From the sequence record MT446390.1: 64,000 bases of DNA; one strand, written 5' to 3'. Origin of the DNA: Escherichia phage TH12. The position numbers were made by a program, and so were the translations under genes. Under the pieces are notes generated by a model that was not told the origin of the DNA, made no database searches, and worked only from the letters and a program-made list of their open reading frames with translations. Positions within the stretch are counted from its first letter, which is position 1, and every line of letters starts with the position of its first letter. Positions 12,300 through 62,783 of the stretch are shown in pieces.

Positions 12300-12662
12300 A
12301 TGAAAGCATATCAAATTCTTGAAGGCACACACAAAGGCACTATTTATTTTGAAGACGGTACTCAAGCCCGGATTATTGTCTCTAAGACTTTTAAAGAAGA
12401 CGCTATTGTAGACCCGGAAATTTTCTACGGTTTGAATGCCCGTGAAATTGAAATTGAACATCAACCTAAAGTTAAAATTGAAGGTGGTCAACACCTGAAC
12501 GTTAATGTTCTGCGTCGTGAAACTCTGGAAGATGCAGTTAAGCATCCAGAAAAATATCCGCAGTTGACCATCCGTGTATCCGGTTATGCAGTTCGCTTTA
12601 ACTCTCTGACTCCGGAACAGCAGCGTGACGTTATCGCTCGTACCTTTACTGAGAGTCTATAA
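12300..12662 (+). CDS. autonomous glycyl-radical cofactor (GrcA/YfiD-like)
   Basis: C-terminal [25 protein letters not shown] glycyl-radical motif. Confidence 0.8.
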
Positions 12663-12886
12663 TGGCTAAATTGATTATAGAAGGGTCTGAAGATGTTTTA
12701 AAATGTTTTGCCGCCTGGTTTAGTTGCTCAGGCGAGCAATCATTCATTGAAGCATTTAGAATGGGTGATATTACTGGAAACTATCCGACAACTGATATAA
12801 TTGTACGTGGATATGGCATTAATGAGCCTATCCAATTAGTCGAATATGACCTTGCCACTGATGAGGAAATTCCTTATGTCGATTGA
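12662..12886 (+). CDS. hypothetical protein (74 aa)
   Basis: Stop/start overlap. Confidence 0.45.
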   Translation: MAKLIIEGSEDVLKCFAAWFSCSGEQSFIEAFRMGDITGNYPTTDIIVRGYGINEPIQLVEYDLATDEEIPYVD

Positions 12887-13142
12887 AGACATCAAAGGCT
12901 ACAAGCCGCATACCGATGATAAAATCGGTAAAGTGAACGCTATTAAAGATGCAGAAGTCCGTCTTGGATTGTTGTTTGATGCTCTGATTGAAGAAGCATA
13001 TATCTTGAAAGAAAATGAAACAGAGCAACAAACCAAAGAAGATATGGATGCAGTACAGGCTCTTAAGTATGCTAAGCAACATCTAAAAGAAGCCAGCATG
13101 TGGGCCTGTCGTGCAGTATTTCGACCTGAGGAAAAATACTAA
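12876..13142 (+). CDS. hypothetical protein (88 aa)
   Basis: ATG after GAGGAAA. Confidence 0.4.
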
Positions 13143-13441
13143 TGGCTCAAATCCTATCAGGCTTTGGAACTCATTATGAAGCATCTAGACGCATAACTGA
13201 AAGCAATCCTTTTGGCCTTGTTCCGAAGCACAAGAAAATTCAAAGCCTTGATGACTTTGAGAACCGCCTATGGGCCCTCTTTAATGAGTACAAGGCATAT
13301 CTGAAAGAAGACGCTGACGATTGTCTTGAAGAAGATGAGATTGCGTATTACGAACAACGCCTTGAACAGCTCAAGAACTTCCATCAGGTTCGTGACGAAG
13401 TATCTAAAGCAGTTAAAAAGTTAATTCCTTTCAAAGAGTAG
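13142..13441 (+). CDS. hypothetical protein (99 aa)
   Basis: Stop/start overlap. Confidence 0.5.
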
Positions 13442-13469
13442 TTTACTTCTCCTCTAGTTGTGTTACTAT
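13441..13469 (+). promoter_or_regulatory. early promoter with inverted repeat CTCCTCTAGTTG/CAACTAGAGGAG bracketing the -10 and RBS
   Basis: GTTTAC, 17 nt, TACTAT; 12-bp inverted repeat. Confidence 0.5.
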
Positions 13470-13497
13470 AGACTTGTCAACTAGAGGAGAAATCAAA

Positions 13498-13956
13498 ATG
13501 ACTATCAATTCGGAAGTTTTTATCCGCCGTAATAAACTCCGTCGAATCTTTGAAACGGAGTTCCGCAAAATAAATGCCGGTATAAAAGATGCTGCAAAGT
13601 CTCTTGGACTACCAGGCTTTCATATCAAGTATTCTCAACATCTCTTAGATCGTGCCATCCAGAGAGAAATAGATGAGAATTACGTTTTTGAATTATTTCA
13701 TAAAGTAAAAAATCATGTTAAAGAAGTTGCAGAATTTTTATCAATGCCGGCACGTCCAGATGTTGATGAAGATTTTGTCGAAGGTGTCGAATATCGCCCA
13801 GGCCGTTTAGAAATAACTGATGGAAATCTTTGGTTAGGTCTTACAGTTTGTCGCGAAAATCCGGCATTCAAAATGAAGACTCTTCAATGTAGAATGGCTA
13901 TTATTAACAGTAAACGACTACCAGGAAAAGCTTCTAAAGCAGTGATTAAAATCTAG
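13498..13956 (+). CDS. regB: RegB site-specific endoribonuclease
   Basis: MTINSEVFIRRNKLRR...PGKASKAVIK matches T4 RegB. Confidence 0.9.
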   Translation: MTINSEVFIRRNKLRRIFETEFRKINAGIKDAAKSLGLPGFHIKYSQHLLDRAIQREIDENYVFELFHKVKNHVKEVAEFLSMPARPDVDEDFVEGVEYRPGRLEITDGNLWLGLTVCRENPAFKMKTLQCRMAIINSKRLPGKASKAVIKI

Positions 13957-13964
13957 AGGTAAAC

Positions 13965-14507
13965 ATGAGAAAAGCACTACTCGCTGGTCTATTTGCTCTT
14001 TCGTTATCAGCACATAGCTCCGAGCATACTTTTAGTAATGTCCAACTCGATAACTTGAATTATGCTTATCAGTTTGGGGAACAGTTTTCTAAGGACGGAA
14101 AATTTAAAACGCATGAAAATATGCATAAGAAAGGACTTGGATACATAATGGCCGCAATACTATGGCAAGAATCATCCGCAGGTATTAATCTTAAAGATAA
14201 GAAAGGTCACCATGCGTATGGAATGTTCCAAAACTATCTACCAACAATGAGGGCAAGAATTAACCAGCTTGGTTATAATATGACTGATGCCCAAATTAAG
14301 AAAATGCTATCTAAGCGGTCTAATTCAGCAAGATGGGCTTATATCGAATTTTCTTATTGGTTAAATATACATAACGGGGATATAAGAAAAGCTATATCCT
14401 CATATAATGCGGGATGGAAGACAAGTGCTGGAAGTAAATATGCTTCTGAAGTCCTAGAAAAGGCTAATTACCTTAAATCAAATAAACTACTGGAAATAAA
14501 AGAATGA
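13965..14507 (+). CDS. secreted lytic-transglycosylase-like protein (signal peptide; ES, GMFQ, YNAG motifs)
   Basis: N-terminal signal peptide plus SLT-like motif order. Confidence 0.55.
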   Translation: MRKALLAGLFALSLSAHSSEHTFSNVQLDNLNYAYQFGEQFSKDGKFKTHENMHKKGLGYIMAAILWQESSAGINLKDKKGHHAYGMFQNYLPTMRARINQLGYNMTDAQIKKMLSKRSNSARWAYIEFSYWLNIHNGDIRKAISSYNAGWKTSAGSKYASEVLEKANYLKSNKLLEIKE

Positions 14508-14851
14508 CCAAAATGTTGGCTTTAATAGTTAGCTTGGTTTCATTTAACGCTCTTGCTAATACTACATATACTGATGTAACGGAGTATACAAACAGAACGG
14601 CGTCTGATTATTGTGGTAAAAGTCAAGAGTGTAAAGTAGATTTTTCACAAAAATTGTTATATGCGTATAAAGACGGAGAAAAAGATGGGGCGTCTAGTAG
14701 GTTCAAGGCGTCTACTTTAATTAAAAGATACTATAAAAAATGGCAAATATTAGAATGCTCGGTGGCGGAACCTAAAGATAAGGCAGCATGCAATTCTATG
14801 GTGGACCGTCTAGTTGACTCTTATACTAGAGGACTTGTAGCAAGTGATTAA
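14504..14851 (+). CDS. secreted hypothetical protein (115 aa)
   Basis: Signal-peptide-like N-terminus. Confidence 0.5.
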   Translation: MTKMLALIVSLVSFNALANTTYTDVTEYTNRTASDYCGKSQECKVDFSQKLLYAYKDGEKDGASSRFKASTLIKRYYKKWQILECSVAEPKDKAACNSMVDRLVDSYTRGLVASD

Positions 14852-15311
14852 AAACTATATCAAGGGCGATATTGTCGCCCTGTTTTCTAAAGGTAATAAT
14901 ATTGCTCATGGGTGCAATTGTTTTCATACAATGGGTGCCGGTGTAGCAGGTCAATTGGCAAAGGCTTATCCAAAAATTTTAGAAGCCGATAAACTTCAAA
15001 CCGAATTCGGAGACGAGACTAAACTCGGGACTTATTCGGTTTATGAAAAATATTTTAAGACCCATAAAGCTTATTGCTTTAATCTTTATACACAGTTTGA
15101 GCCGGGACCTAATTTTGAGTACTCTGCTTTAATGAATTGTATAATAGAATTAAATGAATTCGGAAAAAATAAGATAACAAAGCCTGTAATTTATATGCCA
15201 AGAATTGGTGCAGGTATTGGTGGTGGAAACTGGGATGTCATCGAAGAGATTTTAGATACGTATTCCACTAAACTAGAAATTGTGATTGTTGATTGGGAAC
15301 CATTGTTATGA
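14844..15311 (+). CDS. macro-domain-like protein (ADP-ribose binding/hydrolase fold); GTG start
   Basis: Motifs resembling macro domain: GAGVAG and PRIGAGIGGG. Confidence 0.55.
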   Translation: MIKNYIKGDIVALFSKGNNIAHGCNCFHTMGAGVAGQLAKAYPKILEADKLQTEFGDETKLGTYSVYEKYFKTHKAYCFNLYTQFEPGPNFEYSALMNCIIELNEFGKNKITKPVIYMPRIGAGIGGGNWDVIEEILDTYSTKLEIVIVDWEPLL

Positions 15312-15514
15312 GCCAAACAAAAATTCTTACAGGTGCTAAATGCGAAAAATGCGAATGGCCTGTAGTTTTTGCTTTATGCAATGACGAAATGGCTTGTGAT
15401 TTTGATTATTGGTGTTACTGTTCGAACAAAGGTTGTAGCAATCATAAAGGTGAAGGGTTTTACTCAGGATTTTACCCTTACCCAGATTTCGTTAAAGAAG
15501 GTGAACCTAAATGA
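15308..15514 (+). CDS. Cys-rich small protein (68 aa), possible zinc-binding
   Basis: CEKCEW ... CYCSNKGC; ATGA overlap. Confidence 0.45.
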   Translation: MSQTKILTGAKCEKCEWPVVFALCNDEMACDFDYWCYCSNKGCSNHKGEGFYSGFYPYPDFVKEGEPK

Positions 15515-15693
15515 AATTGACTAAAGAAGAGAAAACTAAACTGTTCGAACTTATCCATGACCTATTGGATGAGCAAGCAGCCACTAATGCGTACGATGAA
15601 TATGCTCCTTTAACAGACGAAGAATATCAAGCATTGATGGAATCATTTGACAGGAAAGAACAAGAACTCATTGACTACGTGAATTCACTATAA
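15511..15693 (+). CDS. hypothetical acidic protein (60 aa)
   Basis: ATGA overlap. Confidence 0.45.
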   Translation: MKLTKEEKTKLFELIHDLLDEQAATNAYDEYAPLTDEEYQALMESFDRKEQELIDYVNSL

Positions 15694-15702
15694 GGGACTC
15701 TT

Positions 15703-16284
15703 ATGGCTAGTTTAATTTTTACCTATGCCGCTATGAACGCTGGTAAGTCTGCTTCATTACTTACTGCCGCACATAACTATAAAGAACGTGGCATGGGTGT
15801 ATTAGTTCTTAAACCGGCTATTGATACTCGCGATTCAAAAGGTGAAATAGTCTCCCGTATTGGTATTCGTCAGGATGCCAATATAATTACAAAAGACATG
15901 GATATCTTTGAATTTTATAAATGGGCTGCAGCACAAAAGGATATTCACTGTGTATTTGTTGACGAAGCTCAGTTCTTAACTACTGAAAAGGTGTATCAAC
16001 TTAGTCGTATTGTTGACGTATACAATGTGCCGGTAATGGCATACGGACTACGAACAGATTTTAAAGGTAATCTATTTGAAGGTTCTCAAGCATTAATGGC
16101 TATTGCCGATAAGCTTGTTGAACTTAAAGGTGTCTGTCATTGTGGTAAAAAGGCCACTATGGTAGCTAGAGTCACGGAAGACGGACTTCCAATTACAGAT
16201 GGCAGTCAAATTGAAATTGGTGATACCGATAGATACGTGTCATTATGCCGGAAGCATTGGAATGATTTGACAGGGTTGTTATAA
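15703..16284 (+). CDS. tk: thymidine kinase
   Basis: P-loop AAMNAGKSASLL and zinc-ribbon Cys pairs; matches T4 Tk. Confidence 0.95.
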   Translation: MASLIFTYAAMNAGKSASLLTAAHNYKERGMGVLVLKPAIDTRDSKGEIVSRIGIRQDANIITKDMDIFEFYKWAAAQKDIHCVFVDEAQFLTTEKVYQLSRIVDVYNVPVMAYGLRTDFKGNLFEGSQALMAIADKLVELKGVCHCGKKATMVARVTEDGLPITDGSQIEIGDTDRYVSLCRKHWNDLTGLL

Positions 16285-16290
16285 ATACTA
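16283..16290 (+). promoter_or_regulatory. late promoter TATAAATA
   Basis: Exact motif overlapping tk stop, about 22 nt upstream of ATG 16312. Confidence 0.4.
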
Positions 16291-16311
16291 ATATCTAACC
16301 AAGAGGTATAT

Positions 16312-16524
16312 ATGCAGCAATTAAACGAAAGACAACTTCGTAATCTTACTGTAACCCAATTGGATGAAATCCGAAGAGAATTAGGACATTCTATTTCTCA
16401 TTTAAACGAGGATATCCGTCAAACTGGTTCTAAAGCTGATTATACACGCAAGCGCAAGCTGGAAAAATACCTCACAGATGTTAAGGCCGTCCAAAGGCGA
16501 AAAATAAATACTGGCCAAAATTAA
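16312..16524 (+). CDS. hypothetical basic protein (70 aa)
   Basis: ORF. Confidence 0.5.
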
Positions 16525-16536
16525 CAGGAGGCCTAT

Positions 16537-16839
16537 ATGGCCTTAAGAGCGATAGCTGTCATGGCGATGCTGGGGTTTTTTGCAGCAACAACTCCTATCG
16601 TTGGTACTGCACATATTGACCCATATTTTGATAACTTTATGGAATCAGGGATTAAAAACGTATATACTTTGTTTGAAATTCAAAATGTCGAGAATTCTGA
16701 AAAATTCTATAAGTATATGGCAAAGCATTACAAAAATAGCCCCTGTGATGATGCATTTGAATGTCATGAACAAGGCATAAAAACTGCCAGACAATTTGCT
16801 GAGTTCATGAAAATAAAATTAGAGCCTACATCTATCTAA
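16537..16839 (+). CDS. secreted hypothetical protein (100 aa)
   Basis: Signal-peptide-like N-terminus. Confidence 0.5.
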   Translation: MALRAIAVMAMLGFFAATTPIVGTAHIDPYFDNFMESGIKNVYTLFEIQNVENSEKFYKYMAKHYKNSPCDDAFECHEQGIKTARQFAEFMKIKLEPTSI

Positions 16840-16846
16840 TTTACTA

Positions 16847-16873
16847 GCCCCTTCCTTATGGTTGGGGCTTTTT
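16847..16873 (+). terminator. intrinsic terminator, same GCCCC..GGGGC stem as 1724
   Basis: GCCCCTTCC-TTAT-GGTTGGGGC + TTTTT. Confidence 0.6.
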
Positions 16874-16884
16874 GGCATTTAACA

Positions 16885-16913
16885 GTTTACTTCTCCTTGA
16901 GATGTGTTATAGT
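16885..16913 (+). promoter_or_regulatory. early promoter (GTTTAC, 17 nt, TATAGT)
   Basis: Motif. Confidence 0.5.
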
Positions 16914-16940
16914 AGTCCTTACTTACTAGAGGAGAACGTT

Positions 16941-17120
16941 ATGACACGTAAAGAAAAGATTTCTAAGTTGATGTTTTTGATTGAAGAGTACGCTAATGCG
17001 GTATCTGATTGGGAAAATGCTCATGGTTGCGAAGATGGAGACATCGACATTAACAGGGCTATGAAAAAGATGGCCGACGCTCACACCGAATTGCAAATGT
17101 ATGTTAACGAGATTATGTGA
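16941..17120 (+). CDS. hypothetical protein (59 aa)
   Basis: ATG after GAGGAGAA; track start at 16872 would run through the promoter. Confidence 0.45.
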   Translation: MTRKEKISKLMFLIEEYANAVSDWENAHGCEDGDIDINRAMKKMADAHTELQMYVNEIM

Positions 17121-61535: not shown

Positions 61536-62117
61536 ATGACATGTCAATCTGAACTTCAAGAACGCGAATACCTAACAAATCTGATTGATAGCAAATTCAC
61601 CCGCCAAGAACAAAACATTCTCTGGGCTTGCACTGATTCTAAGGAAGACCCAGATTTCCACTATGAATTAGACCATCTTGTCCGTAAGCATATGACTTCT
61701 ACAGTACCAGTAGAACTCTACCGTGGTGTAACTCCAGAAGAAGTAGAACGTCTTTCCCTTCTTTCTGTTGGATGCCATTGGTCTCCTGGACGCGCGACAT
61801 CATTCACAACTGATTTCAGTACAGCTCGTCAATTCTCTGGGAGATGGGAATATCAAACGTACACTATTCTTAGTCTTCGAAATGCTCCATTCATTTTTGA
61901 TTACTACCAAAACATGGTTAACATTATACTCGCTGGAAAGAATCCTAAGCATGTTATGGAAGAAACGCGTGTTGACGTCCTAGATATGATTGAATCTGAA
62001 CAAGAATACATGGTCTCAGGTATCTCTAGATTTGAGATTGTGGAAATTGAAGACTTAGAATATGACCCTTTATCTCGGTTATACAAAATCATTCATTTGA
62101 AAATGTTGAATTTTTAG
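61536..62117 (+). CDS. modB: ADP-ribosyltransferase (ModB-like by position)
   Basis: R-S-E type ART motifs (YRG ... TTDFSTA); tandem paralog of next gene. Confidence 0.55.
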   Translation: MTCQSELQEREYLTNLIDSKFTRQEQNILWACTDSKEDPDFHYELDHLVRKHMTSTVPVELYRGVTPEEVERLSLLSVGCHWSPGRATSFTTDFSTARQFSGRWEYQTYTILSLRNAPFIFDYYQNMVNIILAGKNPKHVMEETRVDVLDMIESEQEYMVSGISRFEIVEIEDLEYDPLSRLYKIIHLKMLNF

Positions 62118-62174: not shown

Positions 62175-62783
62175 ATGTTTATGCCGTATAACGAGTGTGA
62201 AATTGAAGAAATGGTTCGTCGTGCTCAAAACCCCGAATATCAAGATGTATTGCAGTACGAAATTGATAGTCAATTCAGCGACATTGAACAAAGTGTACTG
62301 TGGCAGTGTATGGAAAACAAGCCAGATAGCATCCAACAGGAGTTAAGTTCAATCGTTCGTAGAAATTGGACGTCTTCTGTTCCTGAGACAATGTATCGTG
62401 GAATCTCTAAGAAAACTATGGCCACACTTGATGATAAAGGCATTGGTAGTATTATTAAATTTGACAGAGTAATGAGCTTCAGCCCAGTGTTCGGTGTAGC
62501 ACGTAACTTTGCTTCGTATAATTTTTACGGAACATTTAATATGTTCTGCATCAAAGATGCACCATTTGCTTTCAACTTCCGTGAACATATGCTTAATATG
62601 ATTCTGGCTGCGCCATCTTGCGAGTTCAATGGAGCTTTCCCTGAAGCAACAAGACGGTCTAATGCTAGACTTATATCTGACGAATGCGAATTTATGCTCC
62701 CTATAGGGACTACACTGCGTGTAGATTCTATTATTCAAGATGGACGTTATACAATCTGGAATCTGTCTATTGTCAGTTACTGA
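62175..62783 (+). CDS. modA: ADP-ribosyltransferase (ModA-like by position)
   Basis: YRG ... SFSPVFGVARNF; paralog of 61536. Confidence 0.55.
   Translation: MFMPYNECEIEEMVRRAQNPEYQDVLQYEIDSQFSDIEQSVLWQCMENKPDSIQQELSSIVRRNWTSSVPETMYRGISKKTMATLDDKGIGSIIKFDRVMSFSPVFGVARNFASYNFYGTFNMFCIKDAPFAFNFREHMLNMILAAPSCEFNGAFPEATRRSNARLISDECEFMLPIGTTLRVDSIIQDGRYTIWNLSIVSY

What the first reader, a model, noticed from the sequence alone, without database searches (positions are those of the whole stretch)
14844..15311. Macro-domain-like protein in a phage that also encodes ADP-ribosyltransferases
The translation shows macro-domain-like Gly-rich motifs (GAGVAG, PRIGAGIGGG). Macro domains bind or remove ADP-ribose; here it could reverse phage ModA/ModB-type modifications or counter host ADP-ribosylating defences such as DarT-like toxins. 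It appears to start at GTG.
Basis: partly seen in the sequence, partly recalled or inferred. Interest (0 to 1): 0.6.

Follow-up and report, generated by a model that had tools for sequence, protein, structure and literature searches.

The report
Phage macrodomain AdfM (T4 tk.4 ortholog)

Summary

The window comes from a T4-like phage (Tevenvirinae). The ORF is the syntenic ortholog of T4 tk.4: 85% identity, dN/dS 0.07, gene order regB-vs.1-vs-tk.4-...-tk. tk.4 has been annotated as an "A1pp phosphatase"/macro domain since 2006.

A 2025 preprint (HIDEN-SEQ) found tk.4 to be the only T4 gene needed on DarTG2-expressing hosts and renamed it adfM. The alternative, reversing the phage's own ModA/ModB marks, has no support.

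One point appears not to be in the papers I read. The tk.4 family has an invariant Gln84 where DarG and TARG1 have their catalytic Lys. This resembles Streptomyces SCO6735, a proven thymidine-ADP-ribose hydrolase, but tk.4 lacks SCO6735's long lysine-bearing loop. It is also a different lineage from the DarG-like PhiKZ "AdfM".

Enzymatic activity has not been shown for any tk.4-type protein. Verdict: already known, and of low to moderate interest.

The parts
14844..15311 (+). CDS for a 155-aa stand-alone macrodomain protein, the ortholog of T4 tk.4 / adfM
   Evidence: ORF. 85% identity to T4 Tk.4 over the full length. Same synteny as T4. Pfam Macro above cut-off. AlphaFold2 pLDDT 95.9. dN/dS 0.07 against T4.
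14828..14846 (+). Ribosome-binding region: AGAGGA (14828-14833) followed by the GTG start (14844-14846). The GTG lies inside the last codons of vs, giving an 8-nt overlap (GTGATTAA).
   Evidence: Sequence. T4 has ATG at the homologous position. RefSeq annotates the same start in Shf125875.
14907..14921 (+). H22-G23-C24-N25-C26 motif. N25 is the conserved macrodomain Asn, equivalent to SCO6735 N27, DarG N22 and PhiKZ AdfM N23. H22 is equivalent to SCO6735 H24 and Poa1p H23.
   Evidence: G23 and N25 are invariant and H22 is 104/107 in the family alignment. Alignment to reference proteins. Mutational data come from PMC9411070 and PMC13309987.
14934..14951 (+). G31-A-G-V-A-G36 loop, the first Gly-rich loop of the macrodomain ADP-ribose cleft.
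   Evidence: G33 and A35 are invariant. The loop aligns with MGAG/MGKG of TARG1 and DarG.
15093..15095 (+). Codon CAG for Gln84. It is invariant in the family and sits at the position of the catalytic Lys of DarG (K80) and TARG1 (K84), and of Gln85 in SCO6735.
   Evidence: Q84 is 107/107. hhalign against DarG gives probability 98.7%. L-INS-i alignment. SCO6735 Q85A is inactive (PMC9411070).
15198..15227 (+). G126 sits where TARG1 has the catalytic D125.
   Evidence: P119, I121, G122 and G124 are invariant. Alignment.
15308..15311 (+). ATGA stop/start overlap with the downstream 68-aa zinc-binding ORF, indicating translational coupling
   Evidence: Sequence. The downstream ORF matches Pfam Phage_zn_bind at 3.5e-29.

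Best explanation
The gene encodes a stand-alone macrodomain ADP-ribosylglycohydrolase of the ALC1/TARG1-like class, the ortholog of T4 Tk.4 (AdfM). It acts as an orphan antitoxin.

Proposed mechanism: when the phage infects a cell carrying DarTG2, the DarT2 toxin ADP-ribosylates thymidines in single-stranded phage DNA and blocks replication. The phage enzyme binds the ADP-ribose in its Gly-rich cleft (G31-G36 and P119-G128) and hydrolyses the thymine-ribose bond, which restores replicable DNA.

Catalysis probably follows the SCO6735-type mechanism, which has no catalytic Lys. In that mechanism Gln84, held in place by Asn25, positions the distal ribose and a water molecule attacks.

Shown here: the gene, its start codon, the macro fold, orthology to T4 tk.4, and the residue equivalences.
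Shown by others: T4 tk.4 is required on DarTG2 hosts, and SCO6735, DarG, TARG1 and PhiKZ AdfM cleave thymidine-linked ADP-ribose.
Inferred: that this allele does the same, and that it acts by hydrolysis with Gln84 and Asn25 as the key residues.

For: Orthology: 85% identity to T4 Tk.4 with no gaps, the same neighbours, and dN/dS 0.07 with dS about 1.2.

Function of the ortholog: tk.4 was the only significant hit on DarTG2 hosts and a clean deletion sensitised T4 (10.1101/2025.11.20.689424). T4 lacking adfA and adfN stayed DarTG2-resistant, which had predicted a further factor (PMC11825919).

[quoted passage not shown] SCO6735, which has Gln85, is faster than DarG and TARG1 and rescues cells from DarT toxicity. 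Its Q85A mutant is inactive and N27S is nearly inactive (PMC9411070).

Residues: N25, Q84, G122 and G124 are invariant in 107 homologs and H22 is 104/107. Q84 aligns with DarG K80, TARG1 K84 and the BT1257 Gln.

Model libraries: the only hit in NCBIfam and in PADLOC is the DarG macro module.
Against: No enzymatic assay exists for any Tk.4-type protein. The T4 evidence is genetic and comes from a preprint.

This allele differs from T4 Tk.4 at 23 of 155 residues and is untested.

The family lacks the catalytic Lys of DarG and TARG1 and the Asp of TARG1. It also lacks two features that matter in SCO6735: Lys34 is Ala, Ser or Gly here, and the extended mobile loop carrying Lys89 is absent (the loop is 8 residues in 90/107 members, against 14 in BT1257). 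The mechanism is therefore extrapolated.

Catalytically dead SCO6735 also inhibits DarT by binding it, so a binding contribution rather than hydrolysis cannot be excluded.

Macrodomains are promiscuous, so other substrates could be the main ones in other hosts.
Confidence: 0.78

Rival explanations
1. The enzyme is an eraser of the phage's own ADP-ribosylation. It would remove Arg-linked ADP-ribose or RNA (RNAylation) marks placed by Alt, ModA or ModB on host proteins, to time or limit those modifications.
For: Two ModA/ModB-type ART ORFs lie in the same window at 61536..62117 and 62175..62783. An arginine-specific macrodomain does exist (Legionella MavL; PMC10951314, listed), so Arg-ADP-ribose is not chemically out of reach for the fold.
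Against: The genes are about 47 kb apart and are not co-transcribed.

Macro homologs occur in 2,795 phage records, including many Pseudomonas (182), Vibrio (130), Acinetobacter, Aeromonas and Bacillus phages and about 88-kb and 138-kb E. coli phages. Mod-type ARTs were found in 1,078 records, almost all T4-like phages of enterobacteria. I compared the counts and the organism breakdown only and did not cross-tabulate record by record.

The nearest characterised relatives act on thymidine-linked or Glu/Asp-linked ADP-ribose.

The T4 screen gave tk.4 a phenotype only on DarTG2 hosts.
Confidence: 0.05
2. The enzyme processes small ADP-ribose metabolites. This would be a Poa1p-like ADP-ribose-1''-phosphate phosphatase, an O-acetyl-ADP-ribose deacetylase, or a degrader of ADP-ribose-derived immune signals. 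The legacy "phosphatase" annotation implies this reading.
Against: The "phosphatase" label is a 2006 domain-name transfer from SMART A1pp (PMC1524935), not an experimental result. No source of ADP-ribose-1''-phosphate in T4-type infection came up in anything I examined. The only phenotype found for T4 tk.4 is DarTG2-specific. This activity could coexist with DNA de-ADP-ribosylation as a side activity.
Confidence: 0.08
3. The protein protects mainly without catalysis. It would bind and inhibit DarT2, or shield ADP-ribosylated DNA, rather than hydrolyse the mark.
For: Catalytically dead SCO6735 Q85A, DarG K80A and TARG1 K84A all inhibit DarT in vitro, with SCO6735 the strongest (PMC9411070). The Tk.4 family lacks every residue known to act as an acid-base catalyst in this class.
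Against: N25, Q84 and both Gly loops are invariant, and dN/dS is 0.07. This is the pattern of an active site, and Q85 and N27 are required for catalysis in SCO6735. The protein has no counterpart of DarG's C-terminal DarT-binding domain: it is 155 aa and matches only positions 4-146 of the 338-position DarG model.
Confidence: 0.07

Closest known systems
Phage T4 Tk.4 = AdfM (NP_049723; bioRxiv 10.1101/2025.11.20.689424)
   Same: Ortholog: 85% identity over all 155 residues, the same gene neighbourhood (regB, vs.1, vs, tk.4, small ORFs, tk), and the same invariant residues.
   Different: There are 23 substitutions, including A32 (T4 has S) and G127 (T4 has K). At both positions the window allele carries the family consensus residue. 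The start codon is GTG instead of ATG, and the overlap with vs is 8 nt instead of 4 nt. The anti-DarTG2 phenotype has been tested only for the T4 allele.
Streptomyces coelicolor SCO6735 and Bacteroides BT1257 (Gln-type ALC1-like macrodomains; PDB 5E3B, 2FG1/2AFC)
   Different: The "mobile loop" after the Gln is 6 residues shorter here and has no equivalent of Lys89. SCO6735 Lys34 is Ala, Ser or Gly in this family. SCO6735 and BT1257 are cellular proteins, whereas this one is phage-encoded.
DarG antitoxin macrodomain (T. aquaticus 5M31/5M3E, M. tuberculosis 5M3I)
   Different: Gln84 stands where DarG has the catalytic Lys80. There is no FPTKxxWR motif, no C-terminal DarT-binding domain and no adjacent darT gene. 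The NCBIfam DarG score is 33 bits against a cut-off of 250.
PhiKZ gp104 "AdfM" (Cell Rep 2026, PMC13309987)
   Same: A phage-encoded stand-alone macrodomain that counters DarTG2. The conserved Asn (N23 in gp104, N25 here) is shared.
   Different: gp104 is a genuine DarG-like protein: E 9e-25 to M. tuberculosis DarG, with the Lys in FPTKDNWR. It shares only a 23-residue BLAST match with the window protein (E 6e-4). The same name therefore covers two separate lineages. Removal of ADP-ribose from DNA in vitro has been shown only for gp104.
Human TARG1/OARD1 and yeast Poa1p
   Different: The TARG1 Lys84/Asp125 dyad is Gln84/Gly126 here. Poa1p is a phosphatase of a tRNA-splicing by-product.

Membership tests
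Macro domain superfamily (Pfam PF01661) | Profile match above the curated gathering score | tested here: met
   28.7 bits against a cut-off of 22, covering profile positions 2-117 of 118.
Macro domain superfamily (Pfam PF01661) | Three-layer alpha/beta/alpha fold with a central mixed sheet, matching solved macrodomains | tested here: met
Macro domain superfamily (Pfam PF01661) | Binds ADP-ribose | not testable with these tools
   Binding is inferred only from the conserved Asn25 and the two Gly-rich loops.
ALC1/TARG1-like macrodomain class | Nearest structural and sequence neighbours belong to this class rather than to the MacroD, PARG or macroH2A classes | tested here: met
T4 Tk.4 / AdfM orthologous group | Full-length high identity and conserved gene neighbourhood | tested here: met
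   85% identity with no gaps. The gene lies between vs and the small tk.x ORFs, upstream of tk.
T4 Tk.4 / AdfM orthologous group | Required for plating on DarTG2-expressing hosts | not testable with these tools
   Shown only for T4.
DarG antitoxin (NCBIfam NF048014) | Score above the equivalog cut-off; macro domain plus C-terminal DarT-binding domain | tested here: not met
   33 bits against 250. Only model positions 4-146 of 338 are matched, and the protein ends at residue 155.
DarG antitoxin (NCBIfam NF048014) | Catalytic Lys (K80 in T. aquaticus DarG) | tested here: not met
   Invariant Gln84 occupies that position.
DarG antitoxin (NCBIfam NF048014) | Encoded next to a darT toxin gene | tested here: not met
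   The neighbours are vs and a zinc-binding small ORF.
SCO6735/BT1257 subclass | Gln at the catalytic position, held by the conserved Asn | tested here: met
   Q84 and N25 are both 107/107. Alignment. Functional data.
SCO6735/BT1257 subclass | Mobile loop about 5 residues longer than in TARG1 and DarG, carrying Lys89; Lys34 in the first Gly loop | tested here: not met
   The loop between Q84 and Y93 is 8 residues in 90/107 members, against 14 in BT1257. Position 32 is A80/S18/G5 and is never Lys.
TARG1 | Lys84/Asp125 catalytic dyad | tested here: not met
   Gln84 and Gly126 are at the aligned positions. The TARG1 sequence I used was verified against PDB.
PhiKZ-type AdfM (gp104) | DarG-like sequence with the FPTKxxWR motif | tested here: not met
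   The pairwise BLAST match covers only 23 residues (E 6e-4). The motif is NLYTQFEPG here.
Poa1p-type ADP-ribose-1''-phosphate phosphatase | His23 and Ser30, the residues mutated in PDB 6LFS and 6LFT | tested here: inconclusive
   H22 is conserved (104/107). The position equivalent to S30 is T29, conserved in only 67/107. The Poa1p paper was not available in the library, and activity cannot be tested here.

The most novel reading that the evidence does not exclude
Tk.4-type AdfM may be a third mechanistic variant within the ALC1-like macrodomains. It has Gln at the catalytic position, as in SCO6735, but the short TARG1-length loop and neither of SCO6735's DNA-positioning lysines. It was acquired independently of the DarG-like PhiKZ AdfM. 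It could therefore use a different DNA-binding surface, with the invariant D49 and the K60-L61-G62 segment as unexplained candidates, or have a broader substrate range than DarG, for example uracil- or thymine-linked ADP-ribose on RNA and DNA.
Probability: 0.25. Interest if true: 0.45.

Novelty: already known. Interest (0 to 1): 0.25.

Why it matters
The result confirms that this T4-like phage carries the anti-DarTG2 factor AdfM. T-even phages also carry anti-DarTG1 factors, AdfA and AdfN. That is useful for predicting host range on DarTG-bearing E. coli and Shigella, but it adds no new biology.

The useful residue is mechanistic. The T4-type AdfM family has an invariant Gln where DarG and TARG1 have their catalytic Lys, and it is unrelated in lineage to the PhiKZ protein that shares its name. 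This gives precise mutants to test (Q84A, N25A).

There is also an annotation point. Many database records still call the protein "phosphatase" or "hypothetical", and some truncate it because the GTG start was missed.

Tried and rejected
1. MAFFT on 7 sequences and pairwise HMMER aligned the BT1257 Gln with Cys78 of the query, using a single 3-residue gap. I rejected that alignment. L-INS-i with all 107 family members, and hhalign against DarG, place Gln84 on the BT1257 Gln, the DarG Lys80 and the TARG1 Lys84, at the end of the same strand.

2. Sigma-70 promoter scan of 12500-17000: 13 sites against 14.4 expected, so it is uninformative. A regex search for MotA-box middle promoters between 12000 and 15000 found nothing. 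Expression timing therefore remains unaddressed.

3. The terminator-like hairpin at 14863-14881 is identical in T4, but a run of 8 identical codons is not unusual given that 53% of codons are identical. I treated it as unproven.

4. A search for the Poa1p structure paper found nothing in the library.

5. I checked papers on CmdTAC and on Thoeris in Migulavirinae for a phage macrodomain role. Neither mentions one.

6. Pfam gave no hit for the two Mod-like ORFs. Their identity rests on tblastn to T4 ModA/ModB and on the annotation of relatives.

Full report
**The observation**

Window 14844..15311 (+) is an open reading frame of 155 codons that starts at GTG. GAGVAG is residues 31-36 (nt 14934-14951) and PRIGAGIGGG is residues 119-128 (nt 15198-15227).

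The GTG start is correct, for the following reasons:
- It lies at the position that holds ATG in T4 tk.4.
- It is preceded by AGAGGA.
- It overlaps the end of the upstream gene vs by 8 nt.
- Homologs align from residue 1.
- RefSeq annotates the same 468-nt CDS in the 99.4%-identical Shigella phage Shf125875.

Some relatives are mis-annotated from the internal ATG and lose the first 29 residues, including the key Asn. PECP20 is an example.

**What it is**

The window comes from a T4-like phage of the Tevenvirinae. The 2.4 kb around the ORF is 99% identical to PECP20, CCU7 and Shf125875, and Shf125875 is classified as a Mosigvirus. The gene order is regB, vs.1, vs, this ORF, two small ORFs, then tk, which is the T4 order.

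The protein is 85% identical to T4 Tk.4 with no gaps. Between the two alleles dN/dS is 0.07 at dS of about 1.2, so the gene is under strong purifying selection.

It is a macrodomain:
- Pfam PF01661 scores above its gathering threshold.
- PHROG 335 matches at 8e-67.
- The AlphaFold2 model has pLDDT 95.9 and pTM 0.91.
- Foldseek ranks the same group on top.

This places the protein in the ALC1/TARG1-like class of macrodomains.

**What is already known**

T4 tk.4 has been linked to the A1pp/macro domain since at least 2006 (PMC1524935). The RefSeq product name "phosphatase" is a transfer of that domain name.

A 2025 preprint (HIDEN-SEQ, 10.1101/2025.11.20.689424) screened a T4 transposon library on E. 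coli expressing DarTG2. It found tk.4 as the single significant hit, confirmed with a clean knockout that T4 became sensitive, and renamed the gene adfM, for anti-DarT factor macrodomain. This filled a gap left by earlier work: T4 lacking adfA and adfN remained resistant to DarTG2 (PMC11825919).

The preprint's evidence is genetic. Hydrolysis of DNA-linked ADP-ribose was proposed there, not shown. A separate 2026 paper gave the same name AdfM to PhiKZ gp104 and did show removal of DarT2-placed ADP-ribose from ssDNA in vitro (PMC13309987).

**How it most likely works**

I aligned 107 homologs that are at least 37% identical to the window protein. The invariant positions are G23, N25, G33, A35, D49, G62, N80, Y82, Q84, P119, I121, G122 and G124. 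H22, K60, T83 and W130 are nearly invariant.

Profile-profile alignment to DarG (probability 98.7%) and an L-INS-i alignment with reference proteins give these equivalences:
- Gln84 sits on the catalytic Lys80 of T. aquaticus DarG, on Lys84 of TARG1, and on the Gln of BT1257.
- Gly126 sits on Asp125 of TARG1.

I verified the TARG1 sequence I used against PDB.

The family therefore lacks the Lys or Lys/Asp chemistry of DarG and TARG1. It shares the Gln solution described for SCO6735, which is 54% identical to BT1257. In SCO6735, Q85A abolishes activity and N27S nearly does. The enzyme removes thymidine-linked ADP-ribose faster than DarG or TARG1 and rescues cells from DarT. The proposed mechanism has Gln, locked by Asn, positioning the distal ribose while a water molecule acts (PMC9411070).

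The match to SCO6735 is incomplete in two respects:
- The "mobile loop" that is five residues longer in SCO6735 and BT1257 and carries Lys89 is short here. It is 8 residues in 90/107 members, the same length as in TARG1.
- SCO6735 Lys34 is Ala, Ser or Gly in this family.

My best reading is a hydrolase for thymidine-linked ADP-ribose on ssDNA, with Asn25 and Gln84 at the centre of the active site. Its DNA-contacting residues are still unidentified.

**Relation to the other AdfM**

PhiKZ gp104 matches M. tuberculosis DarG at 9e-25 and keeps the FPTKxxWR motif with the Lys. Against the window protein it gives only a 23-residue BLAST match (E 6e-4). The two "AdfM" proteins are therefore separate acquisitions from different branches of the same macrodomain class.

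The window protein is also not a DarG equivalog. It scores 33 bits against a cut-off of 250, matches only the macro module, has no C-terminal DarT-binding domain, and has no darT gene as a neighbour.

**Rival explanations**

1. Erasing the phage's own Mod or Alt marks. The window does contain two tandem ModA/ModB-type ORFs at 61536..62117 and 62175..62783. They are about 47 kb from the macrodomain gene. The macrodomain is found in 2,795 phage records across many groups, including Pseudomonas, Vibrio, Acinetobacter, Aeromonas and Bacillus phages and E. coli phages of about 88 kb and 138 kb. Mod-type ARTs were found in 1,078 records, almost all enterobacterial T4-like phages. I compared totals and organism breakdowns only, not record by record. 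An Arg-specific macrodomain exists (MavL), so this reading cannot be excluded on chemical grounds, but nothing points to it.

2. Processing of small ADP-ribose metabolites, as the "phosphatase" name implies. Similarity to Poa1p and the shared HxCNC motif keep this open as a side activity. The label was never tested, and the only known phenotype is DarTG2-specific.

3. Inhibition of DarT2 by binding rather than hydrolysis. Catalytically dead SCO6735 does this in vitro. However, the conservation pattern here is that of an active site.

T-even phages are strongly restricted by the mRNA ADP-ribosyltransferase system CmdTAC (abstract of PMC11618068). Tk.4 evidently does not neutralise that modification.

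**Verdict**

The feature is an already known and already named gene, so its novelty is low. What remains open is biochemical: proof of activity for the T4-type enzyme, and how it manages without the catalytic Lys of DarG or the lysine-bearing loop of SCO6735.

Noticed in passing
window 61536..62117 and 62175..62783 (+): Two tandem ModA/ModB-type ADP-ribosyltransferase ORFs. They are only 30-38% identical to T4 ModA/ModB and have no Pfam hit. This divergent allele pair is shared at 93-99% identity with Shf125875-type phages.
   Followed up: partly
window 14504..14851 (+) (vs) and 13965..14507 (+) (vs.1): The vs product, annotated as a valyl-tRNA synthetase modifier, begins MTKMLALIVSLVSFNALA/NT. 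This looks like a cleavable Sec signal peptide, which is odd for a protein said to act on a cytoplasmic synthetase. vs.1 also has a signal-like N-terminus, plus a weak SLT transglycosylase match (E 1.3e-3, below the cut-off).
   Followed up: no
window 14863..14881 (+): An 8-bp GC-rich hairpin (about -13 kcal/mol) followed by GTTTTCT lies inside codons 7-13 of the macrodomain gene. The hairpin is identical in T4 even though dS is about 1.2. The run of identical codons is not statistically unusual, so any function is unproven.
   Followed up: partly
L004 1032..1412 (Escherichia phage PECP20, OQ873415): The ortholog is annotated from the internal ATG (381 nt) instead of the GTG. This removes residues 1-29, including the essential Asn25. 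Many other records call the gene "hypothetical protein" or "phosphatase".
   Followed up: yes
window 15308..15703; L004 1409..1621: The window has only two small ORFs between the macrodomain gene and tk: a 68-aa Phage_zn_bind ORF and a 60-aa DUF7438 ORF. PECP20 carries an extra ORF of about 70 aa there, and many other close relatives span about 209 bp more over the same stretch. T4 has three small ORFs (tk.3, tk.2, tk.1).
   Followed up: partly
window 14844-14851, 15308-15311, 15511-15514: There is a chain of overlapping stop/start signals: GTGATTAA, then ATGA, then ATGA. They link vs, the macrodomain gene and the two downstream small ORFs, which suggests translational coupling along the operon.
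   Followed up: no
family alignment A1, positions 49 and 60-62 of the window protein: Asp49 and Gly62 are invariant, and Lys60 and Leu61 are nearly invariant, in all 107 homologs. Neither segment has a described role in DarG, TARG1 or SCO6735. They may mark the DNA-binding surface specific to this family.
   Followed up: no
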